From an uncultured delta proteobacterium (GTDB lineage Bacteria; Desulfobacterota; Binatia; Binatales; Binataceae): 64,000 nt of DNA. Under the pieces are notes generated by a model. That model saw nothing but the letters and a program-made list of their open reading frames with translations. It had not been told where the DNA came from and searched no databases. The translations under genes were made by a program, and so were the position numbers. The DNA lies in the NCBI GenBank assembly GCA_963710455.1, contig CAVQAG010000005.1:24020-88019 (forward strand). The letters are read 5' to 3'. Below, piece after piece: positions 23,257 to 35,831 of the stretch; the stretch's first letter is position 1, and every line of letters starts with the position of its first letter.

Positions 23257-24132
23257 ATGAAAATTGGAGTGACTGCATTCCTTACCGAGAAATCTGGCAA
23301 TCCCGGAGTGATCGCGGCCACGGCCGAGCGCGTCGGATTCGAGTCGTTTTGGGTCGCCGAGCATCTGGTCATCCCGGCCGTTTACGCGACTTGCTATCCG
23401 CGCTCGGCCGACGGCAAGGTGCCCGAGTTTTACGCTCACCTGTCCGATCCGTTCGTCGCGCTGGCGGCGGCCGCGCAAGCCACCTCGCACATTCGCATCG
23501 GCACCAGCGTTTGTTTGCTGCCCGAACGCAATCCGATCGAAACCGCCAAGGCCGCCGCGACGCTGGATATGTATTCCGGTGGCCGGCTGATGTTGGGAGT
23601 TGGCGCGGGCTGGTTTCCCGAAGAGGCCGCGATCATGGGCGTCGACTTCAAGCGCCGCTGGCGTCATCTGCGCGAGTGCGTCGAGGCGATGCGCGAGCTA
23701 TGGGCCAAGCCCGAGGCGAGCTACGAGGGAGAGATCATCCGGTTCCCGCCAGTCAGGCTTTTTCCCAAGCCGATACAGAAGCCATATCCGCCAATTTTTC
23801 TCGGCGCGCACGATCCCGGGCCGGCTTTGAAACGGGTCGCGCGATGGGCGGACGGATGGATGCCGGGCGGGCTTAGCCCCGAGAAGGCCGAGGAGTGTAT
23901 ACCGCAGATCAAACGGATGGCGCGCGACAATGGACGCGACCCCGAGCGGATTGAGTTCTCGGTGATGCTCGGTATCGGCGCGCAGCAGGCACCGTCGGAC
24001 GACGCGCTCAAGCGTTATGCGGCAGCCGGCGTCAGCCGGGTGATAATCCTGGCGGGCGAGACTGCCGCGCGCGACGGCGTCGCTGTGGTCAAGGAACTGG
24101 CGCCGCTGGTTGAGCGTGCCGCGCGGATCTGA
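23257..24132 (+). CDS. LLM-class (luciferase-like) F420-dependent oxidoreductase
   Basis: AERVGFESFWVAEHLVIP...IRIGTSVCLLPERNPIETAKAAATLD..SGGRL.LGVGAGW...RWADGWMP. Confidence 0.8.
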   Translation: MKIGVTAFLTEKSGNPGVIAATAERVGFESFWVAEHLVIPAVYATCYPRSADGKVPEFYAHLSDPFVALAAAAQATSHIRIGTSVCLLPERNPIETAKAAATLDMYSGGRLMLGVGAGWFPEEAAIMGVDFKRRWRHLRECVEAMRELWAKPEASYEGEIIRFPPVRLFPKPIQKPYPPIFLGAHDPGPALKRVARWADGWMPGGLSPEKAEECIPQIKRMARDNGRDPERIEFSVMLGIGAQQAPSDDALKRYAAAGVSRVIILAGETAARDGVAVVKELAPLVERAARI

Positions 24133-24289: not shown

Positions 24290-24598
24290 TTGTCTATCGA
24301 AACGATCAAAATCGATCCGAACTCGGTTGTAGCCGCGGTTGCGGACCAGGTTTCCTGCGACCTCGAGGGCGAGGCTGCCGTCCTCAATCTCAAGACCGGC
24401 GTCTACTATGGACTCGACGACGTCGGGGCCTCGGTTTGGCGCATGCTCAATGAGCCGCGGCGCGTGGATGAACTGGTCGACGCGCTGCTCGGCGAGTACG
24501 AGGTGGATCGCGAGGAGTGCCAACGCGACGTGATCGCGTTGCTCGGCGAACTCGCCGTGCGCGGGCTGATCGAGATCAAGGACGGGGTCGAGGGCTGA
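24290..24598 (+). CDS. PqqD-family RiPP recognition element (lasso B1), copy 1
   Basis: VSCDLEGEAAVLNLKTGVYYGLDDVGASVWRMLNEPRRVDELVDALLGEYEVDREECQRDVIALLGELAVRGLI. The TTG start is the first start after the upstream stop. Confidence 0.85.
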   Translation: MSIETIKIDPNSVVAAVADQVSCDLEGEAAVLNLKTGVYYGLDDVGASVWRMLNEPRRVDELVDALLGEYEVDREECQRDVIALLGELAVRGLIEIKDGVEG

Positions 24599-24640
24599 GT
24601 GCTGATGTAACTCCAGTAACATCGATGTGGCGGAGGAGGT

Positions 24641-24949
24641 GTGATGGTGGTGGCGCAATTATCGCGAAACTCGGTCGTCGTGGCCTGCGAGGGCAACGCG
24701 TCGCGTGATCTGGAGGGCGAAGCCGGGGTTCTCATCTGCAAGGACGGCACGTACTACGGGCTCGAGGACGTCGGCGCGAAGATCTGGGCGCTCATTGCCG
24801 AGCCCCGCGCCGTAGGCGAGATCTGCGACACGCTGCTCGACGAATACGAAGTCGAGCCGGACGTCTGTGAACGCGACGTGATTGCGCTCGTCGGCGAACT
24901 TACCGCCAAGGGCCTCGCGCAGACCATAGATGCGGCACGCCTCAGTTGA
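24641..24949 (+). CDS. PqqD-family RiPP recognition element (lasso B1), copy 2
   Basis: ASRDLEGEAGVLICKDGTYYGLEDVGAKIWALIAEPRAVGEICDTLLDEYEVEPDVCERDVIALVGELTAKGL. A GGAGGAGG SD lies upstream. It is about 60% identical to copy 1 over the core. Confidence 0.85.
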   Translation: MMVVAQLSRNSVVVACEGNASRDLEGEAGVLICKDGTYYGLEDVGAKIWALIAEPRAVGEICDTLLDEYEVEPDVCERDVIALVGELTAKGLAQTIDAARLS

Positions 24950-24988: not shown

Positions 24989-26770
24989 ATGCGGGGCGGG
25001 CCATTGCGGGCCGGCGGAAACAGGCTTCGGCGGCCTGAAGACCAGTCAGCGAACAAGACCGCTGAGGGACAAGCTTCGGCGAGCGCGCTCGCGTCACTGA
25101 CGGTGTGCGTCGGTGCCGGTTTCGTCCTGGCGTTCACTCCGGTTCTCCTATGGCATCTTAAAACCGGTGACTGGGTCTGCCTAAGCGATTGGTTCAGCCT
25201 CTACTACCTGCGCTTCGTCGCACAAGCGTACTACCATCATGCTCTCTACATAGCCGACATCGTTATGCCGGGCGGCGCCACCACTTATCCGTGGCTTCAG
25301 TTCGTGCCGGCGACCTACGTTGCGCGAGTCTTGGGCGCGGGCCCATTCGCGGTCAACCTCATCTGGACTTTGCTGAGCGCAGTCGGACTCAGCGCAGGCC
25401 TCTATCTCGTTTTCCGGCATTTCCTCGGACGGCCCTGGGTGGCGGCTGGATGTACGATTCTCTGCATCTCAGACTATGGTTTCGCCGCCGCGCGTCCGCT
25501 CACGACTCAGCTTCAAATGCTCGCCTCAGCTCTTTGGCTCCATCCGCGGGGCTTCGTCACGATTCCGTGGGGGCTTCTGTTGCAGTGGCGCATTCCGGAT
25601 CCCGGCCTGAATCTTCCGTTCCTATTCTTTCAGATTGTCGCCCTTGCGCGAGCGCGCGAGCGGCCGACTCGCCTGAACCTGGGGTTTTCCGGACTGATGT
25701 TTGGACTGCTCTTCTACGTGTTTTTTTATTGCTGGACTATGGTGGCGGCCGGACTGGGTATCGCTTTCATGCTCGATCGCGGAGCGCGCAGAGTCTATGC
25801 CGCAACGTTATGCATAGGCGGTGTCATTGGCCTGCCGCAGTTGCTCTATGGCATTCACCTGAATCACCTGCTCTCGCCTGAAGCGATGAGGCGGTTCGGC
25901 CTGTTCACCCCGGCTCCCAGACTTTATGAGAACACTGTACCCACGCTTTCGCTCATTGCCCTGGCGGCGACTGCCTGGTGGATCCGGAAGTCCGAAAGAT
26001 TCGATCTGCTATACGCATGGAGCCTGGTCGCAGCAGGAATCCTGCTTAGCCGCAGCCGCATAGTCAGTGGAATATGTTTTCACGAGTATCACTATGATTG
26101 GCTATGGGCGCCGATTCGAGGCGCGCTGGTTCTGATCGTCGTGCTGAGTATCGTAAATCTGCGGTATCGATGGCGTCCGGCCATCGCCGCGACCTCCTGG
26201 GCGCTGCTGACGCTCTACTTCGCTAGCGGAGTCTACCTTGCCGCTATCTGCATTACCCGCACATCGTTCGGCGTGGCGCAGGTGGAGAATTACGTGCGAT
26301 ACAAGGCGCAGCGCATGTCCGGAGCGGTCGAGCCGCTCGTGCCCGGCGCGACGATCGCGGGCGACGACGGATTTTGCGAGGTGGCTGCGGTTGCCGAAGA
26401 CCAGTGGGTACTGAGCGGCGAGGCCGTTCCAAGAAGCCTGGTGGTTGACAACGATCAGTGGCAGTCGAGAGCGGCGCTCAACGCATACCTGTTGGGAACG
26501 GGCCGCGCGGAGTTTGAAAAGGCTGCGCAATCTGACGCCGAGCATTGGTTCTGGGAGAGACCCGAGCGCCAGCCCCAGGTGCTTGCTGCGTTCATGCGGA
26601 AATATGACGAAGTCGTCCATAACCCCGATCGATTTATCGTTCAATTCGGCGTCCGCTACGTGGCGCTGCCGGTGGACAAGGCCGAAAGTGTTTATGTACG
26701 CGAAGGTTGGACGATGTTTCAGCAGGGGCCCTATTGGCGGATCTGGGAGAGACGAAAATCCCGCCCCTGA
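24989..26770 (+). CDS. large polytopic membrane protein of unknown function, embedded in the lasso cluster
   Basis: 593 aa. Ten or more hydrophobic segments occupy the first 400 aa or so, followed by a roughly 190-aa soluble C-terminal domain. No family motif was recognised by eye. Confidence 0.7.
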   Translation: MRGGPLRAGGNRLRRPEDQSANKTAEGQASASALASLTVCVGAGFVLAFTPVLLWHLKTGDWVCLSDWFSLYYLRFVAQAYYHHALYIADIVMPGGATTYPWLQFVPATYVARVLGAGPFAVNLIWTLLSAVGLSAGLYLVFRHFLGRPWVAAGCTILCISDYGFAAARPLTTQLQMLASALWLHPRGFVTIPWGLLLQWRIPDPGLNLPFLFFQIVALARARERPTRLNLGFSGLMFGLLFYVFFYCWTMVAAGLGIAFMLDRGARRVYAATLCIGGVIGLPQLLYGIHLNHLLSPEAMRRFGLFTPAPRLYENTVPTLSLIALAATAWWIRKSERFDLLYAWSLVAAGILLSRSRIVSGICFHEYHYDWLWAPIRGALVLIVVLSIVNLRYRWRPAIAATSWALLTLYFASGVYLAAICITRTSFGVAQVENYVRYKAQRMSGAVEPLVPGATIAGDDGFCEVAAVAEDQWVLSGEAVPRSLVVDNDQWQSRAALNAYLLGTGRAEFEKAAQSDAEHWFWERPERQPQVLAAFMRKYDEVVHNPDRFIVQFGVRYVALPVDKAESVYVREGWTMFQQGPYWRIWERRKSRP

Positions 26771-26962
26771 TTCGCCGCGTCGTCCCGCGCTCCGGGATTC
26801 GCAATCTCACCATCGAACCTCCATTAGCCGTTCCACAGACGCGCATCCGTCTTGCGCTTGTTGCCTTCGCGCGGTTGCGCACACCGTTCGCAGACAAGAG
26901 TGCCAATAAAAGACGCGAAAGAGCAGGGCAGGAGCAGTTTAACTTTGAAACGACGCACAGCG

Positions 26963-27241
26963 AGGTATTTCGTGCTGAAACCAATGCATTCCGGCTTCTA
27001 TGCAACAACCCTCGAACTTCTTCTTGAGCATCTCCAGGTGAATACTCTGATTTTGACTGGCATCGCCAGCAATATCTGCGTTCTGTTCACCGCCAATGAC
27101 GCCTATATATGCGAGGTTACAAATTGTTCGTTCCGGCCGATTGTGTCGCCGCAAACAGCGCCAAAGAGACCGAGTATTCATTGTTGCAAATGAAGAACGT
27201 TTTGAAGGCAGATATTCGCGAAAGCGGCGAGATCGATTTCG
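26963..27241 (+). pseudogene. isochorismatase/cysteine-hydrolase family relic (C-terminal half only, frameshifted)
   Basis: RYFVLKPMHSGFYATTLELLLEHLQVNTLILTGIASNICVLFTANDAY lies in one frame. MRGYKLFVPADCVAANSAKETEYSLLQMKNVL lies in another. They are joined at a TATATATG dinucleotide repeat (about 27100-27110). No N-terminal half was recognisable. The local GC content drops. Confidence 0.7.
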
Positions 27242-27519
27242 ATGTTTTCGCGGCTACGGATCGTGACGGTCGCAGTCGTGCCCGCCCCGCTACGATGCGA
27301 CGACTTTATACTTTCAAGCGGAGCGCTCTCGAAACCGGTCGAAAACAGGAAAATCCGGCGACCAAATCGCAGGGCCGGCGCGTCGAGCATCGTATCCCGC
27401 AGGCGTCTGCGCGACCGCTCCAAAGACTCATATTGGATTCACGATCGTGCTGGTGTTAGTGTTGTGCGTCATGCTCGAGTACGCACATGCTAAACAGATG
27501 AGCGCCAGCAAGAACCGGG

Positions 27520-27975
27520 ATGGCGCGCCGGCTCGCTAGATTTTTCCATCTCCCATTTCCGGATCAGCGCCTGCTGATGCGGGCTGCGCTGGCCGTGGTC
27601 GGTGCGAAGCTGGCGGTCAGAACTTTGCCCTTGCCCGCCGCGCGTGCGGCTGTTTCTCGCCTGCAACGCCTGGGATGGATAGTCACGCCCACGCCCGCCG
27701 ATCGAATCGTGTGGGCGGTTGAGGCCGCGGGCCGCGCTATCCCCGGCATGAAGAACTGCCTGGTGCAGGCGGTCGCGGCGGAAGCGATGCTCGCCCGCGC
27801 GGGCCATCCGTGCGAGCTGCGAATCGGAGCTGCCAAGAGTGGGCCCAGCGAATTGATCGCACACGCGTGGCTGGAGAACGAGGGTAGAGTGCTCATCGGC
27901 GAGTTCGAGTTCGAGCGTTATACTCCGCTGATCCCGCCTCACCTCCGGCGCGGCACGCCGCCCTCGCAGCCGTAG
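27520..27975 (+). CDS. lasso peptide biosynthesis B2 protein (transglutaminase-like leader peptidase)
   Basis: GMKNCLVQAVAAEAMLARAGHPCELRIGAAK......IAHAWLENEGRVLIGE carries the conserved Cys and His of the B2 family. Confidence 0.9.
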   Translation: MARRLARFFHLPFPDQRLLMRAALAVVGAKLAVRTLPLPAARAAVSRLQRLGWIVTPTPADRIVWAVEAAGRAIPGMKNCLVQAVAAEAMLARAGHPCELRIGAAKSGPSELIAHAWLENEGRVLIGEFEFERYTPLIPPHLRRGTPPSQP

Positions 27976-28002: not shown

Positions 28003-29919
28003 ATGAGCGGAATCGCCGCAGTTTACCATCTTGATGGGCGGCCCGTGGCGCGGGGGCTGGTCGCCGCGATGCTCGACGCGGTCGCCTACCGCGGACCCGA
28101 CGGTCTCGATTCGTGGATCGATGGCCCGGTCGGCCTTGGCCACGCGATGCTGCGCACCACGCCGGAAGCGATGCGCGACAGCCAGCCGCTGGTCGATGAG
28201 CAAAGTGGTCTCGCGCTTACGATGGATGGCCGGGTCGACAATCGCGATGAACTCGCGGCGCTGTTGGAGCGCCAGGGATTGCGGCTCGCCGTCGGCACGG
28301 ATGCGGAAATCGTGCTACGCGCGTACCAATGCTGGGGCGAGGAGGCGCCGGCGAAAATTCTAGGAGATTTTGCTTTCGCCCTGTGGGACAGGCGCAAGCG
28401 CCAGCTCTTCTGCGCGCGCGACTTTGCGAGCGTGCAGCCCTTGTTCTACTACAGCGATGGCCGCAGCTTCATCTGCGCTTCCGAGTTGCATCAGATACTT
28501 GCCGATCCGGAGGTGCCGCGCGAGCCCGACGAGCACGTGGTCGGTATGTACCTGACCGGGATGCTGCTCGATCCGGTCGCCACGCTCTATCGCGACATCC
28601 GCAGACTCGAGGGCGGCTGTTCGATCACGGTGCGGCCGGGCAAGATCGATCGGCGCCGCTACTTCGACATCGATCCTGCAAAGAGAATCCGCTATCGCAC
28701 CGACGCGGAGTACGCGGAGCATTTCGAGTCGATACTCAAGGAAGCGGTGCGATGCAGGCTGCGCAACGTCGACGGTGTGGCGGCGGAACTGAGCGGCGGT
28801 CTCGACTCTTCGCTGATCGTCGGAAACATACGGCGCCTGTTGCGGGAAGGCGCGGCACCCGCTCCGCGGTTCGAAACCTTTTCGATCAAGTTCGACGATC
28901 CGCAGGCCGACGAGCGGAGCTTCATCGAGGACGTGGCCGCGCAGTGGGGGTTGCAGACCAACTGGAGTCCGCCATTCTTCGCGAAGTTTTCCGATTTTAT
29001 GGCGGACATCAGGCGCTATCGCTCCTTCGCCGCCCGCCCGAACTCGGTCATGGACACCTTGATGCATCGCGCGATACGCGAACGGGGATTCCGCGTGGTC
29101 CTGACCGGCCAGGGCGGTGACCAATGGTTCGGCGGCAGTGCGGATTGCTTCGCCGAATTGCTGCGCGGGTTTCGGTTCGTCGAGCTTTTCAGACTGCTGC
29201 GCGAAGAAGCGGCTCATCCGACGCGAGTGCGGCCCGGGCAGGCACCGCTGGCGTTGCTGCTGCGCCGCGCCCTGTGGCCGTTGGTGCCGCCGCGGCCCAG
29301 GCTTTTTATCAACCGCCTGCGTGGCTTGAGATTGGTTCCGCCATTCGCCAACCCCGAGTTCACGCGCAGGCTGGACCTCGAGCGCGCGCGAAACGCTCCG
29401 ACCCGCCGGCTTCGCGGCCTCAGCTTCACGCAGCGAACCATGTATCAGGTTCTCAACCTGGGAATCTCGATTCATTTTGCCGAATTGAACGAACGTGAAT
29501 GTGCGCTCGCAGGTATCGAGGGAAGACATCCGTTCTACGACCGCCGCGTGATCGAATTCGCTTTCGCGATTCCTGAAGATCAGCGATGCCGCCCGGGCGC
29601 AACCAAATACATTTTTCGACAGCCGGGCCGCGGACTGCTACCGGAATCGGTTCGCCAGCGCCGGGATAAGGCTGAATTCTCAAGCCTGCTTGTTCATGGA
29701 TTGAAGGATGTGCTCGAAGCTCTCGGCGGCGAGGACGCCTTCGGCTCGTTCAACGTTGTGCAACGAGGCTGGGTGGATCCGGAACAATTTCGCCTCGTGT
29801 ATCGCGAGCGAATGCGTAACATCGGGTCGGCCAACCTATGGCCTTTGTGGTCGGTGCTGGAGCTTGAGATGTGGTCGAGAGAATGTATGGGTTTCCCCGC
29901 CAGGGCGAAGTCAGACTAG
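28003..29919 (+). CDS. lasso cyclase (asparagine synthetase B-like, C protein)
   Basis: MSGIAAVY has Ser in place of the glutaminase Cys2. GLGHAMLRTTPE, GRVDNRDEL, AEIVLRAY..WGE, GDFAFALWD and the PP-loop ELSGGLDSS are all present. Confidence 0.95.
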   Translation: MSGIAAVYHLDGRPVARGLVAAMLDAVAYRGPDGLDSWIDGPVGLGHAMLRTTPEAMRDSQPLVDEQSGLALTMDGRVDNRDELAALLERQGLRLAVGTDAEIVLRAYQCWGEEAPAKILGDFAFALWDRRKRQLFCARDFASVQPLFYYSDGRSFICASELHQILADPEVPREPDEHVVGMYLTGMLLDPVATLYRDIRRLEGGCSITVRPGKIDRRRYFDIDPAKRIRYRTDAEYAEHFESILKEAVRCRLRNVDGVAAELSGGLDSSLIVGNIRRLLREGAAPAPRFETFSIKFDDPQADERSFIEDVAAQWGLQTNWSPPFFAKFSDFMADIRRYRSFAARPNSVMDTLMHRAIRERGFRVVLTGQGGDQWFGGSADCFAELLRGFRFVELFRLLREEAAHPTRVRPGQAPLALLLRRALWPLVPPRPRLFINRLRGLRLVPPFANPEFTRRLDLERARNAPTRRLRGLSFTQRTMYQVLNLGISIHFAELNERECALAGIEGRHPFYDRRVIEFAFAIPEDQRCRPGATKYIFRQPGRGLLPESVRQRRDKAEFSSLLVHGLKDVLEALGGEDAFGSFNVVQRGWVDPEQFRLVYRERMRNIGSANLWPLWSVLELEMWSRECMGFPARAKSD

Positions 29920-29965
29920 AATCTTATCTTCTTAGAATCTTATCTTCTTAAGAATCTTATCTTCG
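29917..29965. repeat. three tandem 16-17-bp direct repeats starting at the cyclase stop codon
   Basis: TAGAATCTTATCTTCT (29917-29932), TAGAATCTTATCTTCT (29933-29948) and TAAGAATCTTATCTTCG (29949-29965). They are followed by an AT-rich segment up to the precursor SD. Confidence 0.9.
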
Positions 29966-30132
29966 CGAAACTGTCCGTAAAACCTAGCCTTTTTCGTTTC
30001 ATCCTTGATGCCATTTGCTCGTCTTATTTATTTCTTGTTATATCTTGACTCCTCAGCGAAGTTTAAGCATTCTTAGTTAGGCCAACGTTGTCAAAGCTAT
30101 CAGATGACGATGGTAACTATGGAGGAGCCACG

Positions 30133-30303
30133 ATGAGCAAGAAAAGCGAAGGTGCGGCTGCGGAAGTTCGTACGCCGATACGCAAAAAGCCCTACCGCAC
30201 GCCGCGTCTTACCGAGTTCGGTCACGTTGCGAAACTGACCGCCGGAACCGCAGGCACGCATACTGATAAAGGGCATATGTCTAACGAACACGGACAGGGC
30301 TAA
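30133..30303 (+). CDS. lasso peptide precursor (A), 56 aa
   Basis: A GGAGGAG SD lies 5 nt before ATG 30133. The peptide is MSKKSEGAAAEVRTPIRKKPYRTPRLTEFGHVAKLTA/GTAGTHTDKGHMSNEHGQG. The leader matches YxxPxLx3Gx5TxG, with Thr at -2. The core starts with Gly1 and has Asp8 available for an 8-residue macrolactam. The ORF track lists the longer 30088 start. Confidence 0.85.
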   Translation: MSKKSEGAAAEVRTPIRKKPYRTPRLTEFGHVAKLTAGTAGTHTDKGHMSNEHGQG

Positions 30304-30324
30304 TGAGGCTTTGCGGCGCCTCAT
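30303..30324 (+). promoter_or_regulatory. stem-loop immediately after the precursor stop (possible attenuator or mRNA stabiliser)
   Basis: ATGAGGC-tttgcggc-GCCTCAT forms a 7-bp stem overlapping the TAA stop. No U-tract follows. Confidence 0.45.
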
Positions 30325-30850
30325 CCTGTCTCTGGTCCTGAATAAAAACCTGCGGGAGGAGCTACAATTTGTCGTAATCCGGAGAGGCATTGTCTAGAGG
30401 CATTGGTGGCTGCCGCCTCTCGGAACAGCCGAGGAAATTGTCGGAACCGGACGCTCGGGTTGAAATCGGGCGTCCGAACTCGTTGAGGTTGCGCTTCTTC
30501 GTCGCGCTCGAGACTCTCTAGAACGTCCCAATCATCTCTTTAACCATTTATTCTCGCCTCTAGTTTGCGGAGGAACGGAGAGGGGGAGTGGCCATCTACT
30601 GATTACGGGCATATCCCCTCTGAAAGCCACCACCACCGTCGCCAACCAGCCATGGCAGCGGTCGACGAACAGATCTCCAGAAATCCCCGCCTGTTCCTTG
30701 ATCTTTCCCGAGAGTGTAGAATTGCCGTCTGAATCCAGCTAGCGGGTCTGAACGCCCGTAAGCTGAAAGGGCTGCAGGCGGCGCACAATCAAAGCTTCCC
30801 CACAGGCGCGTTCCCGACAGCCACTGCGGTTCCATTACGTCGCCTATGGG

Positions 30851-31825
30851 TTGGCGATCGACTCGGATGTTCCGCTGCCCGAGCTGGAAACCACACAACG
30901 CAAATCATTGCCACTTTTTTCGGGACGTCTGCGGATACGGATGGAGCGCCCGTTAGGGGCGAGCCTGCGCGAGCCGCACGATTGGCTGCTTCAGACAAGC
31001 CTGCCTGACGGGCGGCCGTGGATGTGGGCGGCGCGCCAGGAGCAGGGATTCTTGCTGCGCTACGTCGGTCTTGCCGACTTCGCAGTGAATCCGCGCGGCA
31101 CCGAAATGGTTTTGTTGCACGCCGCGCCGGAGAGCTCGCGCGATACGCTCGGCCACTTGTTGCTCGATCAGGCGCTCCCGATGGTCTTGGGTTTGCACGG
31201 AATTCCTACGCTGCATGCTTCCACCGTGGTGACTCCGCGTGGTGTGTGCGCGTTCCTCGGGCCGGCCGGAGCAGGCAAATCGACATTGGCCGCGAGCTTT
31301 GCGAGCGTTGGCTACCCGGCGCTGGGTGACGACTGCCTCGCAATAAAAGAAGACCGTGGATTATTTGCCATCCCGGCGTACCCGGGCCTGCGTCTGTGGA
31401 CCGATTCAGCCGAATCGCTGTCGACGGATTGGTCCAATGCTCCTGCCGTTGCGCACTACACACGCAAGCGGCGCATCCTGAATGCGCCGGCGGCGCAAAA
31501 GTTTCCCACACGGCCGGTGCGCCTGGCGGCCATCTACTGCATCGCGCGCGAGGCGAGCGAGGACGGGCCAAGCACGACGCCGGTGATCGAATCGCTGCGG
31601 CCCAACGAAGTCTTCCTGCAACTGCTCTCCGCCAGTTTCATGCTCGATATCACCGATCGCTCGGTGCTCACCCGCAACCTGCGCTTCATCGAACGCCTGT
31701 TAAATGCGGTGCCGGTCCGGCGGCTGAGGGTTCCTGACGGGTTTTCGTCGCTGCCCAAGGTACGCGAAGCGGTCCTTAAGGACCTCGGTGCATCGAACCT
31801 TGCCGTCAGTCTCGGCGAAAGATAG
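30851..31825 (+). CDS. HPr kinase/phosphorylase-like serine kinase (lasso-associated kinase)
   Basis: LHASTVVTPRGVCAFLGPAGAGKSTLAASF...LGDDCLAI (P-loop plus GDD). The family-typical N-terminus HYVAYGLAIDSDVPLPEL extends in-frame upstream of the TTG at 30851, with no canonical start back to the stop at 30764-30766. Confidence 0.8.
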   Translation: MAIDSDVPLPELETTQRKSLPLFSGRLRIRMERPLGASLREPHDWLLQTSLPDGRPWMWAARQEQGFLLRYVGLADFAVNPRGTEMVLLHAAPESSRDTLGHLLLDQALPMVLGLHGIPTLHASTVVTPRGVCAFLGPAGAGKSTLAASFASVGYPALGDDCLAIKEDRGLFAIPAYPGLRLWTDSAESLSTDWSNAPAVAHYTRKRRILNAPAAQKFPTRPVRLAAIYCIAREASEDGPSTTPVIESLRPNEVFLQLLSASFMLDITDRSVLTRNLRFIERLLNAVPVRRLRVPDGFSSLPKVREAVLKDLGASNLAVSLGER

Positions 31826-33151
31826 GTGGGCGGCCGAGCGCGGATCGCTAAAGGCGCCGGCGATGCCTTCGTGAATTCCATCGCATCCGTACTCAAATCC
31901 AGCCCGGCCCCGAGCCGCGAAGCTGAGCTTCTGATCTGTTGTGCTACTTCGGTTGCAACGCCCGAGCGCAGCGCACGCGCGCGCGCGATCGTGGATAAGG
32001 GCGTCGATTGGGAGCGCGTCTCGCATATGGCGTCGGTGCAGGCGGTGATGCCGCTGGTTTATCGCTATCTGACCTCCGAACTCGGCGGCACGCTGCCGGC
32101 CGAAGCGACAAGCGGGCTCCGCCGGGCCTTTTACGGCAATTCGGTGCGTAACCTCCATCTCGCACGCGAACTGGTGCGCCTGACAACGCTACTCGAACAG
32201 GGAGGCGTCGAACCGCTGGCGCTCAAAGGGCCGGCGCTGGCGATGGCCGCCTACGGCGCTGTTACGATGCGCCAGTTTAACGACCTCGATCTCCTGGTGC
32301 GCAAAGGCGAAGTCCGGCGAGCGGCCGATATCCTGCTCGCCGCGGGCTATGCGCCGCGCGCCGGATACCGTGTTGCTGACCTGGACCGGCCGGGCGCGTA
32401 TGAAATCGCGATGACGCGGGCGGGCGCCCTGATGGAAATCGATCTTCACTGGCGGCTCATTCCGCCCTATTTTCCACTCGCGCTGGACAGCGAAGATCTG
32501 TGGCGGCGCGCGGTGCGGATCGAGGTTGAAGGTGCCCCCGTGCACACGCTCGCACCTGCCGACCATCTGCTCTATCTCTGCGCGCACGGAGCTAAGCACG
32601 GATGGCAGGCGCTCGGTGGGATCTGCGATCTCGCCGAACTGATTCGCGCGACGTCGCGCGCTTCGGCCCCAACTTCATCGCAATCCTCCTTGCAAGTTCC
32701 CGGTATAGACTGGGATGAGCTCTCGGCGAGGGCCGAGCAGGCGGCTGCGCATCGTGCGCTCGAACTCGGGGTACTACTCGCACACGAACTGCTCGATGCC
32801 GCAGTGCCGTCCGCCATACTGGCGGCGGCGCGCCGCGAGCGCGCGGTGGTGCGCGCCGCCCGGAGCTTCGTCGCTTACGCCAGCGACCCTATCGACGACG
32901 GCCCGGGGTTTTACCAGCGATGGGTGGTGCCGTTGGGCGTGATCGCTGGACCAGGAGCGCGGCTGCGCTATCTTGCCGCACGGGCATTATTGCCGAGCGC
33001 CGACGATCACGAGTTTCTGCGGCTGCCGCTGGCGCTTTATCCACTGTACTATCTGCTGCGGCCGGTGCGGGTGGCGCTGAAGGAGGGTCCTGCCGTCGTG
33101 CGCAGGCTGATGCGTTCGGCGCCGCATCCGGCGGATCATTCATCGCGGTGA
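31826..33151 (+). CDS. nucleotidyltransferase-family protein (uncharacterised NTP_transf type, lasso-associated)
   Basis: LALKGPALAMAAYG....RQFNDLDLLVRKGEVRRAADILLAAGY...EIDLHWRL. The GTG start directly follows the kinase TAG. Confidence 0.75.
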   Translation: MGGRARIAKGAGDAFVNSIASVLKSSPAPSREAELLICCATSVATPERSARARAIVDKGVDWERVSHMASVQAVMPLVYRYLTSELGGTLPAEATSGLRRAFYGNSVRNLHLARELVRLTTLLEQGGVEPLALKGPALAMAAYGAVTMRQFNDLDLLVRKGEVRRAADILLAAGYAPRAGYRVADLDRPGAYEIAMTRAGALMEIDLHWRLIPPYFPLALDSEDLWRRAVRIEVEGAPVHTLAPADHLLYLCAHGAKHGWQALGGICDLAELIRATSRASAPTSSQSSLQVPGIDWDELSARAEQAAAHRALELGVLLAHELLDAAVPSAILAAARRERAVVRAARSFVAYASDPIDDGPGFYQRWVVPLGVIAGPGARLRYLAARALLPSADDHEFLRLPLALYPLYYLLRPVRVALKEGPAVVRRLMRSAPHPADHSSR

Positions 33152-34125
33152 GGAAAGCCCTGGGCAGCTTTATTCACGCGCTGTTCGAGGTGGGTCGCCT
33201 GCGGATCGCCGGCGCGATCGGCTTGATGTTGCTCTTTTCGCTCAGCGAGGGTATGGGGGTCGCACTGCTGCTGCCCATTCTGCAGATCTCCGGCTTCAAT
33301 CTCGGTGGGCAGGGTCCGGTCGGCCGGTATGCCGACGCCATCGCCGCCGCCTTCGAAGCCGTCGGCCTGCATCCGAGCCTGCTGCTGCTACTCATGGTAT
33401 TCGCGGGGCTGGTCGGGACGCGGGCGCTGCTGGGGCGCTGGCAGTCAGTCGCGATGTTCTCGGTGCAACAGAATTTCGGCGCCCGGCTGCGCGATCGCCT
33501 GTACCACGCGATCTCCAACGCCAGCTGGCTTGCGCTTTCGCGGATGCGCTCCTCCGACCTGACTCATGCGCTGACCTCCGAGATCGATCGGGTCGAAGTC
33601 GCCGCCTTCGAGGCGATGATTCTCGCCTCCACCGCGCTGCTGTTCCTGCTCTACCTCGGGATCGCGCTGGCTGTCTCACCCTCAATGACAGCGCTCGCGT
33701 TCGGTTGTGGAATCGTCCTGGTCGCGATGCTGCGCGGGCGCACCGCGCTTTTGCGCGGCTCCGGCGCCGAGCTCTCCGAGCGGATCAAGGCACTCTATGC
33801 CGCAACGGTCGAGCATCTGCAGAGCCTCAAAGCGGCCAAGATGTATGGGGTGCAGCAGCGTAATGCCGACGCCTACGCGGCGCTCAGCCACGAGGTCGCC
33901 CGCGTTAACGTCAATATTGAGCGCCAGCAGGCCGCCACCAATTCGCTGTTCGAGATCGGTTCGGTGATCATTCTGGCCCTCGTGCTTTACGTTTCGATCC
34001 GCGTGCTGGGGGTTTCTCCGATAGCCGTGCTGCTGCTGCTCGCGATGTTTGCGCGAGTGATGCCGCGGGTGGATGACGTGCCATCAACTGTACCAGGAAT
34101 GCCTGCACGCGTTGCCCGCGTTTGA
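33148..34125 (+). CDS. ABC exporter, transmembrane-domain portion (lasso D), separated from the ATPase portion by a frameshift
   Basis: GTG 33148 overlaps the upstream TGA (GTGA). It has six hydrophobic segments (IAGAIGLMLLFSLSEGMGVALLLPIL and others). The frame ends at 34125, whereas homology continues in the frame of ORF 34073. Confidence 0.8.
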   Translation: MRKALGSFIHALFEVGRLRIAGAIGLMLLFSLSEGMGVALLLPILQISGFNLGGQGPVGRYADAIAAAFEAVGLHPSLLLLLMVFAGLVGTRALLGRWQSVAMFSVQQNFGARLRDRLYHAISNASWLALSRMRSSDLTHALTSEIDRVEVAAFEAMILASTALLFLLYLGIALAVSPSMTALAFGCGIVLVAMLRGRTALLRGSGAELSERIKALYAATVEHLQSLKAAKMYGVQQRNADAYAALSHEVARVNVNIERQQAATNSLFEIGSVIILALVLYVSIRVLGVSPIAVLLLLAMFARVMPRVDDVPSTVPGMPARVARV

Positions 34126-35065
34126 AAATGTAATGGCCCTGGCCGCGCGCTGCACGTCGGCGGCCGAGCCGGCGAATGCTCCCGTGCAGACGCTCGAATT
34201 TGGAAACTCGCTCCGCATGGAATCCGTCTCGTTCTCCTATCAGCGCGCGAACGGGGCGGCGCCTGGGAAACAGCCCGGCCGATCCATCGCTGACCGGTCG
34301 CCGTCTGATCACTTTTGGGACCTCCCGCAACGGTCGCCAGCGGTGCACGACCTCGACCTCACCGTTGCGGTGGGCGAGGTGGTGGCGCTGGTCGGGCCGT
34401 CGGGCGCCGGCAAAAGCACGATTGCGGATTTGATGACCGGCTTGCTCGCCCCCGATTCCGGGCGGATCACGATCGACGGGGTCGCGTTGGACGAGACGCA
34501 CGCGCGGGCCTGGCGCGAGCAGATCGGGTACGTCTCCCAGGACACGTACCTGTTCCACGATTCGGTGCGCGCGAACCTGTTGTGGACCCGGCCGGGCGCG
34601 AGCGAGGCCGAGGTGCACCAGGCGCTCGCGATGGCCGCGGCAGAGCAATTCGTCGACGCGCTGCCGGCCGGGCTCGACACCGTGATTGGCGATCGCGGGG
34701 CGACGATTTCGCACGGCGAACGTCAGCGCATCGCGCTCGCGCGCGCGTTGCTGCGCCGTCCACGCCTGCTAATTCTGGACGAGGCGACCAACAGCCTCGA
34801 CGCGCACAACGAGCAGCGGATTCTCGAAGCGATCGAACGGCTGCGGGGCGATCTCACGATCGTGACTATTGCGCATCGGATTGCCGCGGTACGACGAGCC
34901 GATCACATCTACGTCATCGAGGGCGGCACGATCATGGAATCGGGAACCTGGGATGAGCTGTGCGCGCGGGAGCACGGACGCTTTCGCGCGCTATGCGAGA
35001 GCCAGGGAATCGCGCCCGCGCCGACCGCTCCGGCGCGGCAGGCGGCATCTCGCCGGCTCGCTTAG
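34073..35065 (+). CDS. ABC exporter, ATP-binding portion (lasso D)
   Basis: Walker A is LVGPSGAGKST. The Q-loop is YVSQD. The signature is ISHGERQR (a variant of LSGGQ). Walker B is LLILDEAT. The H-loop is TIAHR. The preceding QLYQECLHALPAFENV is the end of the TMD. Confidence 0.9.
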   Translation: MTCHQLYQECLHALPAFENVMALAARCTSAAEPANAPVQTLEFGNSLRMESVSFSYQRANGAAPGKQPGRSIADRSPSDHFWDLPQRSPAVHDLDLTVAVGEVVALVGPSGAGKSTIADLMTGLLAPDSGRITIDGVALDETHARAWREQIGYVSQDTYLFHDSVRANLLWTRPGASEAEVHQALAMAAAEQFVDALPAGLDTVIGDRGATISHGERQRIALARALLRRPRLLILDEATNSLDAHNEQRILEAIERLRGDLTIVTIAHRIAAVRRADHIYVIEGGTIMESGTWDELCAREHGRFRALCESQGIAPAPTAPARQAASRRLA

Positions 35066-35750: not shown

Positions 35751-35831
35751 TGCGAGAGGGGGGACTTGAACCCCCACGCCTTGCGGCACCGGATCCTAAG
35801 TCCGGCGCGTCTGCCGTTCCGCCACTCTCGC
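35751..35831 (-). tRNA. tRNA-Leu (anticodon TAG)
   Basis: The reverse complement is GCGAGAGTGGCGGAACGGCAGACGCGCCGGACTTAGGATCCGGTGCCGCAAGGCGTGGGGGTTCAAGTCCCCCCTCTCGCA. It has a perfect 7-bp acceptor stem, a CTTAGGA anticodon loop and a long variable arm. CCA is not encoded. Confidence 0.9.

What the first reader, a model, noticed from the sequence alone, without database searches (positions are those of the whole stretch)
30133..30303. Predicted core peptide GTAGTHTDKGHMSNEHGQG (Gly1-Asp8 ring), a polar His/Gly/Thr-rich lasso core
A GGAGGAG SD and ATG 30133 give a 56-aa precursor. The leader contains Y21-x-x-P24-x-L26 and Thr at -2 (KLT-A/G), the known recognition features for RRE binding and B2 cleavage.

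Cleavage before Gly38 yields a 19-aa core with Asp at position 8, which is consistent with the allowed 7-9-residue macrolactam. The tail (KGHMSNEHGQG) lacks the usual bulky aromatic plug residues, so His11/Met12 or a tailoring group might act as the plug. The core has three His residues, suggesting possible metal binding.
Basis: partly seen in the sequence, partly recalled or inferred. Interest (0 to 1): 0.75.

Follow-up and report, generated by a model that had tools for sequence, protein, structure and literature searches.

The report
Lasso peptide precursor gene, uncharacterised subfamily
This small gene very probably encodes the precursor of a knotted "lasso" peptide, made by the enzymes encoded around it; it is a new member of a known class, and the tailoring enzymes in its cluster lack their usual target residues.

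Summary
ATG 30133 to TAA 30303, with GGAGGAG five bases upstream, encodes the 56-aa peptide quoted. It passes NCBI's lasso-leader model (22.9 bits, cut-off 19) and lies 214 nt downstream of a lasso cyclase on the same strand. The window also encodes a B2 peptidase, two PqqD recognition proteins, an HPr-kinase-like kinase, a PF14907 nucleotidyltransferase and an ABC exporter.

Fifteen close homologues keep Tyr21, Pro24, Thr36, Gly38 (core 1) and Asp45 (core 8) invariant; Leu26 is nearly invariant. Glu52 (core 15) varies freely. dN/dS is 0.07-0.15. About 30 related loci carry the same kind of small ORF just after their cyclase.

It is a new member of a known kind. The closest characterised system is the Bradymonas bsf cluster (Gly1-Asp8 ring, kinase acting on core Ser3). 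This peptide has neither of the two known phospho-acceptors: its C-terminus is an invariant Gly and position 3 is Ala. The kinase target is therefore unknown; I suggest a ring Thr.

Outside the finding, a GT-C-fold membrane glycosyltransferase sits inside the cluster, and I found no described precedent for that among lasso peptides. No product has been observed.

The parts
23257..24132 (+). Luciferase-like monooxygenase (LLM family); possibly part of the cluster as a tailoring enzyme
   Evidence: PF00296, E 9e-59. It lies directly upstream of B1a. LLM genes also sit next to the recognition-protein gene in distant loci L018 and L031, and next to the GT-C gene in lasso locus L045. Association is suggestive only.
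24290..24598 (+). B1a: PqqD-like RiPP recognition element (RRE)
   Evidence: PF05402, E 3.8e-21. Found by tblastn with the B1 of locus L004. It is 93-98% identical in L001-L003, the best conserved protein of the cluster.
24641..24949 (+). B1b: second PqqD-like RRE, a paralogue of B1a (59% identity)
   Evidence: PF05402, E 9.7e-18; paralogy.
24989..26770 (+). 593-aa polytopic membrane protein with a GT-C glycosyltransferase fold
   Evidence: No Pfam hit. The AlphaFold2 model has pLDDT 86 and pTM 0.87. Foldseek best matches are AftA, PglB, STT3, DPY19, ALG9 and ArnT (E down to 1.6e-7, TM about 0.5). Asp90 in the first loop is invariant. Homologues occur in two differently arranged lasso clusters.
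27520..27975 (+). B2: leader peptidase (transglutaminase-like Cys protease)
   Evidence: NF033537 lasso_biosyn_B2, 82 bits against a cut-off of 33; PF13471, E 4.8e-20.
28003..29919 (+). C: lasso macrolactam synthetase (asparagine-synthetase-like)
   Evidence: PF00733, E 7.7e-47. NF033535 lasso cyclase model E 1.4e-137 (460 bits, below that model's cut-off of 525). The SGGLDSS PP-loop is visible in the translation.
30044..30095 (+). Conserved intergenic block upstream of the precursor gene (CTTGACTCCT...TTTAAGCAT...GGCCAAC); probable dedicated promoter or leader region
   Evidence: Invariant columns in the alignment with L001-L003 although the flanking intergenic DNA diverges. The simple sigma-70 scan found no consensus site.
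30121..30127 (+). Shine-Dalgarno sequence GGAGGAG, 5 nt before the ATG
   Evidence: Read directly. GGAGGAG is also present in L001; L002 and L003 carry shorter variants (GGAG and GGGG) at that position.
30133..30243 (+). Leader peptide (37 aa) of precursor A, with Y21-x-x-P24-x-L26-x3-G30-x5-T36-A37
   Evidence: Strongest purifying selection over residues 18-37.
30244..30303 (+). Core peptide GTAGTHTDKGHMSNEHGQG (19 aa) plus stop codon. Predicted Gly1-Asp8 isopeptide ring with an 11-residue tail
   Evidence: Gly1, Gly4, Thr5, Asp8, Gly10, Gly17 and Gly19 are invariant. Thr7, Lys9, His11, Asn14 and His16 are nearly invariant. Glu15 is variable. Family statistics.
30303..30324 (+). Hairpin overlapping the stop codon (AUGAGGC-N8-GCCUCAU)
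   Evidence: -17.3 kcal/mol, z = -2.0. Not conserved in L001, so weak evidence.
30690..30787 (+). Conserved non-coding block ahead of the kinase gene, including a hairpin at 30736-30765
   Evidence: Conserved at DNA level in L001-L003. The hairpin scores -18 kcal/mol, z = -2.4, with compensatory changes visible (GCGGGC/GCCCGC, GCGAGC/GCTCGC, CGGTT/AACCG).
30788..31825 (+). K: HPr-kinase-like lasso peptide kinase. The mechanical ORF starts at TTG 30851, but conserved protein sequence extends upstream, possibly from ATC 30788
   Evidence: H-x14-G-x2-G-x-G-K-S-x15-D-D is invariant in 34 homologues, with the same spacing as the catalytic motif of BsfK (PMC10368454). Weak TIGR04352 hit. The model has pLDDT 88.8 and matches the PEPCK P-loop kinase fold. 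Start-codon problem.
31826..33151 (+). N: PF14907 nucleotidyltransferase
   Evidence: PF14907, E 7.9e-61. This is the family reported to add hexose to the phospho-Ser of pseudomycoidin (review PMC8498205).
33148..35065 (+). D: ABC exporter (membrane domain plus ATPase), interrupted by a single-base insertion near 34070
   Evidence: PF00664 and PF00005 fall on two overlapping ORFs. The gene is continuous in L002 and L003, and the window has one extra base. A GTG start at 33148 overlaps the stop codon of N (GTGA).

Best explanation
The ORF 30133-30303 is the precursor gene (A) of a class II lasso peptide, that is, one without disulfides. The cluster runs from about 24290, perhaps 23257, to 35065.

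Inferred mechanism, by analogy with characterised lasso systems:
1. A PqqD-like recognition protein (B1a and/or B1b) binds the leader through Tyr21, Pro24 and Leu26.
2. It presents the leader to the B2 cysteine protease, which uses Thr36 at -2 and cuts between Ala37 and Gly38.
3. The ATP-dependent cyclase C joins the new Gly1 amine to the Asp8 side chain. This gives an 8-residue macrolactam around the 11-residue tail KGHMSNEHGQG (calculated monoisotopic mass 1902.80 Da).
4. The ABC transporter D exports the product.

The cluster's HPr-kinase-like enzyme K and the PF14907 nucleotidyltransferase N probably decorate the precursor before cleavage. The two known acceptor sites, a C-terminal Ser and core Ser3, are both absent here. 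My guess for the target is a ring threonine: Thr5 is invariant in the subfamily, and Thr2 is the alternative.

What is shown: the gene, its conservation, the leader motif, the invariance of Gly1 and Asp8, and the enzyme set. What is inferred: cleavage, ring, threading, tailoring and export.
For: - The ORF, Shine-Dalgarno sequence and translation are as described.
- The leader matches the lasso model above its cut-off (NF033521, 22.9 against 19 bits).
- B2 (NF033537), the cyclase (PF00733, NF033535), two PqqD proteins (PF05402), PF14907 and the ABC transporter are all present on the same strand.
- Among 15 homologues, Y21, P24, G30, K34-L35-T36-A37-G38, G41, T42 and D45 are invariant. L26 is nearly invariant and E52 is variable.
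- dN/dS is 0.07-0.15.
- About 30 of 40 loci found through the cyclase carry a small ORF with the same motif just downstream of the cyclase, and most also encode B2, K and the nucleotidyltransferase nearby, in varying order.
- A profile search finds 408 representatives. Of 155 parsed precursors, 81% have Gly1 and 92% have Asp or Glu at position 8.
- The kinase catalytic motif is invariant and spaced exactly as in BsfK (PMC10368454). BsfK phosphorylates a ring residue of a Gly1-Asp8 precursor.
Against: - No product has been observed for this peptide or for any close relative. Even the characterised bsf cluster never yielded a mature lasso peptide (PMC10368454).
- The tail has no aromatic residue, so stable threading is not guaranteed.
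- The exporter gene carries a one-base insertion.
- The kinase gene has no canonical start codon at its conserved N-terminus.
- A fragment of an isochorismatase gene lies between the GT-C gene and B2. The cluster in this genome could therefore be partly damaged, or the assembly may carry indel errors.
- The recognition proteins are 3 kb from B2 rather than adjacent.
- The kinase target is a guess: position 3 is Ala here, and across the family no single ring position always carries Ser or Thr.
Confidence: 0.85

Rival explanations
1. The gene is a true lasso-type precursor, but in this organism the pathway is crippled or diverted. The peptide would then end up as a linear, phosphorylated or glycosylated peptide, or nothing would be exported.
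For: - One-base insertion in the ABC exporter relative to L002 and L003.
- No ATG, GTG or TTG at the conserved start of the kinase.
- A gene remnant lies inside the cluster.
- In L001 the exporter is largely deleted, and in L001 and L002 the GT-C gene is fragmented.
- Linear polyphosphorylated peptides made by a recognition protein, an HprK-like kinase, an NTP transferase and an exporter do exist in Bacillota (PMC13381572).
Against: - B2 and the cyclase are full-length, with their motifs intact.
- The precursor, B1a, the kinase and the cyclase are strongly conserved across species.
- Gly1 and Asp8, which matter only for cyclisation, are invariant.
- The related genomes are metagenome assemblies, so the single-base indels could be assembly errors; I could not check this.
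- The linear-peptide systems use a signal-peptidase-like leader peptidase, which is absent here.
Confidence: 0.1
2. The peptide is a lasso precursor, but the ring or the cleavage site differs from the prediction. For example, cleavage after Thr36 would give Ala1 with Asp at position 9, or another carboxylate could be used.
For: Ala1-Asp9 rings exist (paeninodin; my own knowledge). Nine-membered Asp rings are allowed. Nine of 155 family members have their only acidic residue at position 9.
Against: [quoted passage not shown]
- Thr at -2 is invariant here.
- Gly at +1 is found in 81% of the family.
- Glu15 lies outside the 7-9 window and is not conserved.
Confidence: 0.04
3. The ORF is a chance open frame in an intergenic region and is not translated.
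For: The leader motif alone turns up by chance about 0.23 times per shuffled window. No sigma-70 consensus promoter or intrinsic terminator was found by the simple scans.
Against: - Strong Shine-Dalgarno sequence and an ATG.
- Protein-level conservation with dN/dS of 0.07-0.15.
- Fifteen homologous protein clusters.
- The same position next to the cyclase in about 30 loci.
- The curated model cut-off is passed.
Confidence: 0.01

Closest known systems
bsf lasso cluster of Bradymonas sediminis FA350 (BsfA, B1, B2, C, D, K, N; Duan et al. 2023, PMC10368454)
   Same: The gene set is the same: precursor, discrete PqqD recognition protein, B2, cyclase, ABC exporter, HprK-like kinase and a predicted nucleotidyltransferase. 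Both have a YxxPxL leader motif and a predicted Gly1-Asp8 ring. In both, the C-terminal residue is not Ser. The kinase motif H-G-G-G-K-S-D-D has identical spacing. BsfA's core begins with Gly1-Thr2-Ser3 (residues named in the paper's supplement), like the GT(S/T)G consensus of this subfamily.
   Different: - The -2 residue is Thr here and Ile in BsfA.
- The BsfK acceptor Ser3 is Ala in this peptide.
- There are two recognition-protein paralogues instead of one.
- This cluster has an extra GT-C membrane protein and an LLM gene.
- The gene order differs.
Paeninodin-type phosphorylated lasso peptides of Firmicutes and Proteobacteria, and phosphoglycosylated pseudomycoidin (Zhu et al. 2016; Zyubko et al. 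2019; as summarised in PMC8498205)
   Same: A lasso cluster with split B1 and B2, an HPr-kinase homologue, a PF14907-type nucleotidyltransferase and an ABC exporter. The kinase acts on the linear precursor before cleavage.
   Different: [quoted passage not shown] Here the C-terminus is an invariant Gly, and only 6 of 155 family members end in Ser. Paeninodin has an Ala1-Asp9 ring (my own knowledge), whereas Gly1-Asp8 is predicted here.
Actinobacterial Gly1-Asp8 class II lasso peptides (for example lassomycin, chaxapeptin, sungsanpin; from my own knowledge, not checked here)
   Same: An 8-residue Gly1-Asp8 macrolactam, no cysteines, and split B1 and B2.
   Different: Those peptides mostly have hydrophobic or aromatic tails that supply the plugs. 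This core is polar, rich in Gly, Thr and His, has no aromatic residue, and ends in a conserved HGxG motif. The tailoring enzymes and the phylum are also different.
Davasins: lasso peptides glycosylated on Ser by the soluble glycosyltransferase IgtG (PMC11912497)
   Same: They set a precedent for sugar decoration of lasso peptides, including modification of the mature, already threaded peptide.
   Different: IgtG was assayed in vitro on the mature lasso peptide (section headings). The candidate here is a polytopic membrane protein of the GT-C fold. By what is generally known of that fold, it would use a lipid-linked sugar donor on the outer face of the membrane.

Membership tests
Lasso peptide precursor (class II) | Leader carries the recognition motif YxxPxL-x3-G-x5-T-x, with Thr at -2 | tested here: met
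   Y21, P24, L26, G30 and T36. NF033521 scores 22.9 bits against a cut-off of 19. All are invariant in 16 sequences except L26, which is nearly invariant.
Lasso peptide precursor (class II) | Core starts with a small residue (usually Gly) and has Asp or Glu at position 7-9 to form the isopeptide ring | tested here: met
   Gly38 is core 1 and Asp45 is core 8; both are invariant. Across the family, 81% have Gly1 and 92% have an acidic residue at position 8.
Lasso peptide precursor (class II) | Encoded next to a B2 or B protease, a PqqD-type recognition element and an asparagine-synthetase-like cyclase | tested here: met
   B2 at 27520-27975 and the cyclase at 28003-29919. Two PqqD genes at 24290-24949. 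The arrangement is syntenic in L001-L003, and the same genes recur in distant loci.
Lasso peptide precursor (class II) | No disulfide bonds (distinguishes class II from classes I, III and IV) | tested here: met
   The core contains no Cys.
Lasso peptide precursor (class II) | The mature product has an isopeptide macrolactam with the tail threaded through it and held by plug residues | not testable with these tools
   This needs MS/MS, NMR, or carboxypeptidase and heat stability assays. The tail has no F, W or Y. His11, Leu/Met12, Asn14 and His16 are the conserved bulky candidates.
Paeninodin/pseudomycoidin-type C-terminally phosphorylated lasso peptides | An HPr-kinase homologue with an intact catalytic motif is encoded in the cluster | tested here: met
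   H143, G158, G161, G163, K164, S165, D181 and D182 are invariant in 34 homologues. The spacing equals BsfK's H148...D187 (PMC10368454). The fold matches P-loop PEPCK-type kinases. The TIGR04352 hit is weak.
Paeninodin/pseudomycoidin-type C-terminally phosphorylated lasso peptides | The C-terminal residue of the core is Ser, which is the phospho-acceptor | tested here: not met
   The C-terminus is Gly, invariant in 16 of 16 sequences. Only 6 of 155 family members end in Ser.
Bsf-type ring-phosphorylated lasso precursors (Bradymonadales) | Ser or Thr at core position 3, which is the BsfK acceptor | tested here: not met
   Position 3 is Ala in this peptide, in P0001 and in P0013. It is Ser or Thr in the other 13 of 16 close homologues.
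Bsf-type ring-phosphorylated lasso precursors (Bradymonadales) | Ile or Val at the penultimate leader position | tested here: not met
   Thr36 is invariant.
Bsf-type ring-phosphorylated lasso precursors (Bradymonadales) | Gly1-Asp8 ring with a cluster of A, B1, B2, C, D, K and N | tested here: met
   compared with the cluster description in PMC10368454.
GT-C glycosyltransferases (for the 593-aa neighbour, not for the finding itself) | Polytopic membrane fold of the GT-C superfamily, with a conserved acidic residue in the first extracytoplasmic loop | tested here: inconclusive
   The model is confident (pLDDT 86). The top 26 Foldseek matches are all GT-C enzymes, but TM is only about 0.5. Asp90 is invariant. 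There is no Pfam or sequence-level match. Loop topology and activity were not tested.

The most novel reading that the evidence does not exclude
This reading is not excluded by the evidence. The mature product would be a lasso peptide modified in ways not yet described. The HprK-like kinase would phosphorylate a ring threonine (Thr5 or Thr2), rather than a C-terminal Ser or Ser3. The PF14907 enzyme would extend that phosphate. After export, the cluster-encoded GT-C membrane glycosyltransferase would glycosylate the peptide, possibly on the conserved C-terminal N-x-H-G-x-G motif, using a lipid-linked sugar. That would be the first GT-C enzyme known to tailor a ribosomally made natural product. 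The bulky decorations, rather than aromatic side chains, might then hold the tail in the ring. The two recognition-protein paralogues might divide the work between the kinase and the peptidase.
Probability: 0.2. Interest if true: 0.7.

Novelty: new member of a known kind. Interest (0 to 1): 0.4.

Why it matters
The finding is a clean, testable lasso peptide candidate from an uncultured soil lineage, probably Binataceae. No natural product has, to my knowledge, been characterised from that lineage. It stands for a family of at least 400 sequence clusters with the ring motif G-x-x-G-(T/S)-x-x-D.

Most of the related clusters examined here encode an HPr-kinase-like enzyme, yet most members lack the C-terminal Ser on which all but one of the characterised lasso kinases act. 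Working out where the kinase and the nucleotidyltransferase act on this peptide would extend the rules for lasso peptide tailoring.

If the cluster's GT-C membrane glycosyltransferase really acts on the peptide, that would add a new enzyme class to the chemistry of ribosomally made peptides. On present evidence the precursor itself is an ordinary, well-supported prediction.

Tried and rejected
- A recognition protein next to B2 or in the A-K gap. None is there. ORFs 27242-27493 and 27109-27459 have no PqqD match, and the second contains an isochorismatase remnant. The recognition proteins were found 3 kb upstream by tblastn with the B1 of locus L004.
- A second precursor in the window. A relaxed motif scan ([YWF]..P.[LVIMFA]...G.....[TIVA].) finds only this ORF.
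- The longer start TTG 30088 (71 aa). Rejected because 13 of 15 homologues are called at the MSKK/MNKN start, and the Shine-Dalgarno sequence precedes ATG 30133.
- Glu15 as ring acceptor. Rejected because it is not conserved and lies outside positions 7-9.
- Sequence search of the kinase against solved structures gave only P-loop matches. No lasso kinase or HPr kinase appeared in the top 50 structural matches, which were all PEP carboxykinases. The HprK assignment therefore rests on the motif and on a weak TIGR04352 hit.
- Consensus promoter and terminator scans around the gene found nothing.
- Rfam found only a tRNA at 35751-35831.
- The JBC paeninodin paper (PMC4919450) is not held. BsfA and BsfK sequences are only in figure images, so no direct alignment with them was possible.
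- A literature search for lasso peptides in Binatia returned only LASSO-regression papers.
- The multi-repeat proteins P0143 and P0144 that hit the precursor profile are a repetitive protein and a repeat protein with an unrelated C-terminal region, not precursors.
Full report
**1. The observation**

The sequence is as described. GGAGGAG lies at 30121-30127, ATG at 30133 and TAA at 30301-30303. The translation is MSKKSEGAAAEVRTPIRKKPYRTPRLTEFGHVAKLTAGTAGTHTDKGHMSNEHGQG.

The leader also fits the longer lasso consensus Y-x2-P-x-L-x3-G-x5-T-x, with G30 as the conserved Gly. NCBI's curated model NF033521 (lasso RiPP family leader) scores 22.9 bits over residues 21-39 against a cut-off of 19.

The motif alone is not rare. 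Locally shuffled versions of the window give 0.23 matches on average, and 0.027 when an acidic residue at core 7-9 is also required. The case therefore rests on context and conservation.

**2. Context in the window**

All of the following lie on the + strand:
- B2 leader peptidase, 27520-27975 (NF033537, 82 bits; PF13471).
- Asparagine-synthetase-like lasso cyclase, 28003-29919 (PF00733; NF033535 E 1e-137). It ends 214 nt before the ATG of the finding.
- P-loop protein, 30851-31825, with a weak HprK-related hit.
- PF14907 nucleotidyltransferase, 31826-33151.
- ABC exporter, split over two overlapping ORFs to 35065.

No recognition protein lies next to B2. Using the B1 of a distant relative (L004) as a tblastn query, I found two PqqD genes at 24290-24598 and 24641-24949. 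Pfam confirmed both (E 4e-21 and 1e-17). Between them and B2 lie a 593-aa membrane protein (24989-26770) and a roughly 750-nt stretch holding a frameshifted fragment of an isochorismatase-family gene.

**3. Conservation of the small ORF**

A search of 5.8 billion proteins returned 15 clusters at 63-98% identity. All come from metagenomes and none is named.

In the alignment, the following are invariant: M1, K3, K18-K19-P20-Y21, P24, G30-H31, K34-L35-T36-A37-G38, G41-T42, D45, G47, G54 and G56. L26, T44, K46, H48, N51 and H53 are nearly invariant. E52 is E/Q/R/A/P/S/M/V, so Asp8 is the only conserved carboxylate in the core.

Against the orthologues in L001-L003, Nei-Gojobori dN/dS is 0.07-0.15 overall. 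It is lowest (0.03-0.15) over leader residues 18-37. This is a translated gene under selection.

An exact copy of the peptide is on a short contig assembled from run ERR11718638.

**4. Related loci**

Forty loci were found through the cyclase. They come from metagenome-assembled genomes labelled delta proteobacterium, Binataceae, Terriglobia/Acidobacteriota, Burkholderiales, Methylomirabilota and Nitrospirota.

In about 30 of them, a small ORF with the same leader motif starts within a few hundred bases downstream of the cyclase on the same strand. The order B2-C-A-K-N-D is kept in the closest three (76-89% protein identity). B2, K and N recur, in varying order, in most of the others.

Homologous clusters conserve this ORF and not a different one.

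**5. The wider family**

A profile of the 16 sequences, searched against 1.84 billion representatives, found 408 proteins at E <= 1e-3, almost all 45-80 aa long. I could parse 155 of them:

| Feature | Share of 155 |
|---|---|
| Core position 1 is Gly | 81% |
| Position 4 is Gly | 81% |
| Position 5 is Ser or Thr | 74% |
| Position 8 is Asp or Glu | 92% |
| Core ends in Cys-Leu | 32% |
| Core ends in Gly | 24% |
| Core ends in Ser | 4% |
| Tail has F, W or Y | 25% |

The modal core length is 19. Twenty-four members end in H-G-x-G like this one.

**6. Mechanism**

The steps below are inferred from characterised lasso systems, as summarised in PMC10368454 and PMC8498205:
- B2 cuts after the residue that follows Thr(-2).
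- The cyclase adenylates Asp8 and closes the ring on Gly1 around the tail.

For this peptide the product would be a 19-mer of 1902.80 Da with an 8-residue ring. Which residues lock the tail cannot be told from sequence. His11 with Leu/Met12, or Asn14 with His16, are the conserved bulky candidates.

**7. The tailoring enzymes and their missing acceptor**

The kinase-like protein has H-x14-G-x2-G-x-G-K-S-x15-D-D invariant in 34 homologues. This is exactly the spacing of H148-G163-G166-G168-K169-S170-D186-D187, the residues shown by mutagenesis to matter in BsfK (PMC10368454).

Its AlphaFold2 model (pLDDT 88.8) matches PEP carboxykinases best. That fits a P-loop kinase of the PEPCK/HprK type. No HPr kinase itself was in the top 50 matches.

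Characterised lasso kinases phosphorylate either the C-terminal Ser (paeninodin, the Sphingobium cluster, pseudomycoidin; PMC8498205) or core Ser3 (BsfK; PMC10368454). This peptide ends in an invariant Gly and has Ala at position 3. Thirteen of the 16 close homologues, including the window, have Ser or Thr at position 3. Ser13 is Ser or Ala in homologues. The invariant hydroxyl residue is Thr5. Thr7 is nearly invariant, and position 2 is Thr, Ser or Ala.

Every kinase-containing locus whose precursor I could read has at least one Ser or Thr in the ring, but at no fixed position. I therefore suggest a ring threonine as the target. This is an inference, not a result.

PF14907 enzymes add hexose to the phosphate in pseudomycoidin (PMC8498205). 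The function of BsfN is unknown (PMC10368454).

**8. Comparison and membership**

The peptide meets every testable criterion for a class II lasso precursor. It does not meet the defining acceptor feature of the paeninodin type (C-terminal Ser). It also fails two features of the Bsf type (Ser/Thr3 and Ile at -2), although it shares that system's gene set and its Gly1-Asp8 ring.

It is best filed as a new member of the kinase- and nucleotidyltransferase-associated lasso peptides, in an uncharacterised subfamily. No member of the subfamily has a name or a product in the sources searched.

**9. Things seen on the way**

(a) The 593-aa membrane protein. It has no Pfam or PDB sequence match. Its model (pLDDT 86) matches only GT-C glycosyltransferases at the top of the list: AftA, PglB, STT3, DPY19, ALG9, ArnT and Emb (E down to 1.6e-7, TM about 0.5). 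Asp90 is invariant in the first loop.
- Homologues at 47% and 53% identity sit in two differently arranged lasso clusters (L042; L045). In L045 the homologue is next to a luciferase-like monooxygenase.
- Paralogues at about 46% identity sit among housekeeping genes (L044, L046). One at 34% sits in a polysaccharide locus (L043).
- The protein may tailor the exported peptide. It may instead modify the envelope for self-protection, as ArnT does for lipid A. I found no described GT-C enzyme in a lasso cluster; the glycosylated davasins use a different glycosyltransferase, IgtG, which works in vitro on the mature lasso peptide (PMC11912497).

(b) The two recognition proteins. They are 59% identical paralogues. 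B1a is 93-98% identical across species, more than any other cluster protein. In Burkholderiales-type loci, a second PqqD gene directly follows the kinase. This hints at one recognition protein for the kinase and one for the peptidase.

(c) The kinase start. The kinase's conserved N-terminus (RRRTIKAS.QARSR.PLRFHYVAYG) lies upstream of the first canonical start, TTG 30851, which is CTG in L001 and L003. A conserved ATC at 30788, preceded by AGGCGG, may be the start. Upstream of it is a block conserved at DNA level, with a hairpin that shows compensatory changes.

(d) The exporter. It has one extra base near 34070 relative to L002 and L003. Its likely GTG start at 33148 overlaps the stop codon of N.

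(e) A 16-bp unit, AGAATCTTATCTTCTT, is repeated three times at 29918-29966, between the cyclase and the precursor. It occurs only in this genome.

(f) About a third of the wider family ends in Cys-Leu. Four of the loci examined that carry such cores (L004, L008, L009, L011) have an arginine-methyltransferase-like gene between A and K.

**10. Verdict**

It is a good genome-mining target but not a surprise. I score interest at 0.4. What could lift it are the unknown site of phosphorylation and the possible GT-C tailoring, and both need experiments.

Noticed in passing
window 24989-26770 (+): A 593-aa membrane protein with no Pfam hit lies between the recognition-protein genes and B2. Its AlphaFold2 model matches GT-C glycosyltransferases (AftA, PglB, STT3, DPY19, ArnT). 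Homologues recur in two differently arranged lasso clusters (L042, L045), but paralogues also occur outside such clusters. It may be a new kind of lasso tailoring enzyme or an immunity enzyme.
   Followed up: partly
window 24290-24598 and 24641-24949 (+): Two paralogous PqqD-type recognition proteins (59% identical) lie 3 kb upstream of B2. B1a is 93-98% identical across species, the best conserved protein of the cluster. In some distant loci (L008, L013, L015, L021, L032) a second PqqD gene directly follows the kinase gene.
   Followed up: partly
window 30764-30851 (+): The kinase gene has no ATG, GTG or TTG at its conserved N-terminus. The conserved protein sequence (RRRTIKAS...PLRFHYVAYG) runs upstream of TTG 30851, which is CTG in L001 and L003. 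ATC 30788, preceded by AGGCGG, is conserved in all four genomes and may be a non-canonical start.
   Followed up: partly
window 30690-30787 (+): A block conserved at DNA level lies upstream of the kinase gene. It includes a hairpin (30736-30765; -18 kcal/mol, z = -2.4) whose stem shows compensatory changes in L001, L002 and L003. It may be a regulatory RNA or an operator. There is no Rfam match.
   Followed up: partly
window about 34070 (+), within 33148-35065: The ABC exporter gene has one extra base relative to L002 and L003, which splits it into two ORFs. This is either a sequencing or assembly indel or a real frameshift. In L001 most of the gene is deleted. Its probable GTG start at 33148 overlaps the TGA stop of the nucleotidyltransferase gene (GTGA).
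   Followed up: partly
window 29918-29966 (+): Three tandem copies of the 16-bp unit AGAATCTTATCTTCTT lie between the cyclase stop codon and the precursor's upstream region. Chance expectation is 0.02 matches. The repeat is absent from the orthologous position in L001-L003.
   Followed up: partly
window 26852-27459 (+): A frameshifted C-terminal fragment of an isochorismatase-family gene sits in a lower-GC stretch of about 750 nt between the GT-C gene and B2. The same gap is only about 220 nt in L003. This looks like a remnant of an insertion or rearrangement inside the cluster.
   Followed up: no
window 23257-24132 (+); also L018 7903-8517, L031 7915-8685, L045 2202-3086: A luciferase-like monooxygenase gene lies directly upstream of the recognition-protein genes. 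LLM genes also adjoin lasso genes in three distant loci, so it may be a further tailoring enzyme.
   Followed up: no
L004, L005, L008-L010, L012, L014, L018, L025, L031; P0153, P0156: About a third of the wider precursor family (50 of 155) ends in Cys-Leu. In L004, L008, L009 and L011 a roughly 387-aa arginine-methyltransferase-like gene sits between the precursor and the kinase. The conserved C-terminal Cys-Leu suggests an unrecognised C-terminal modification.
   Followed up: no
window 35751-35831 (-) and 37355-38623 (-): A tRNA gene (Rfam, 58.7 bits) lies just downstream of the cluster. A 422-aa ORF that looks like a transposase by eye lies beyond it; I did not test this. Together they may mark the cluster boundary.
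   Followed up: no
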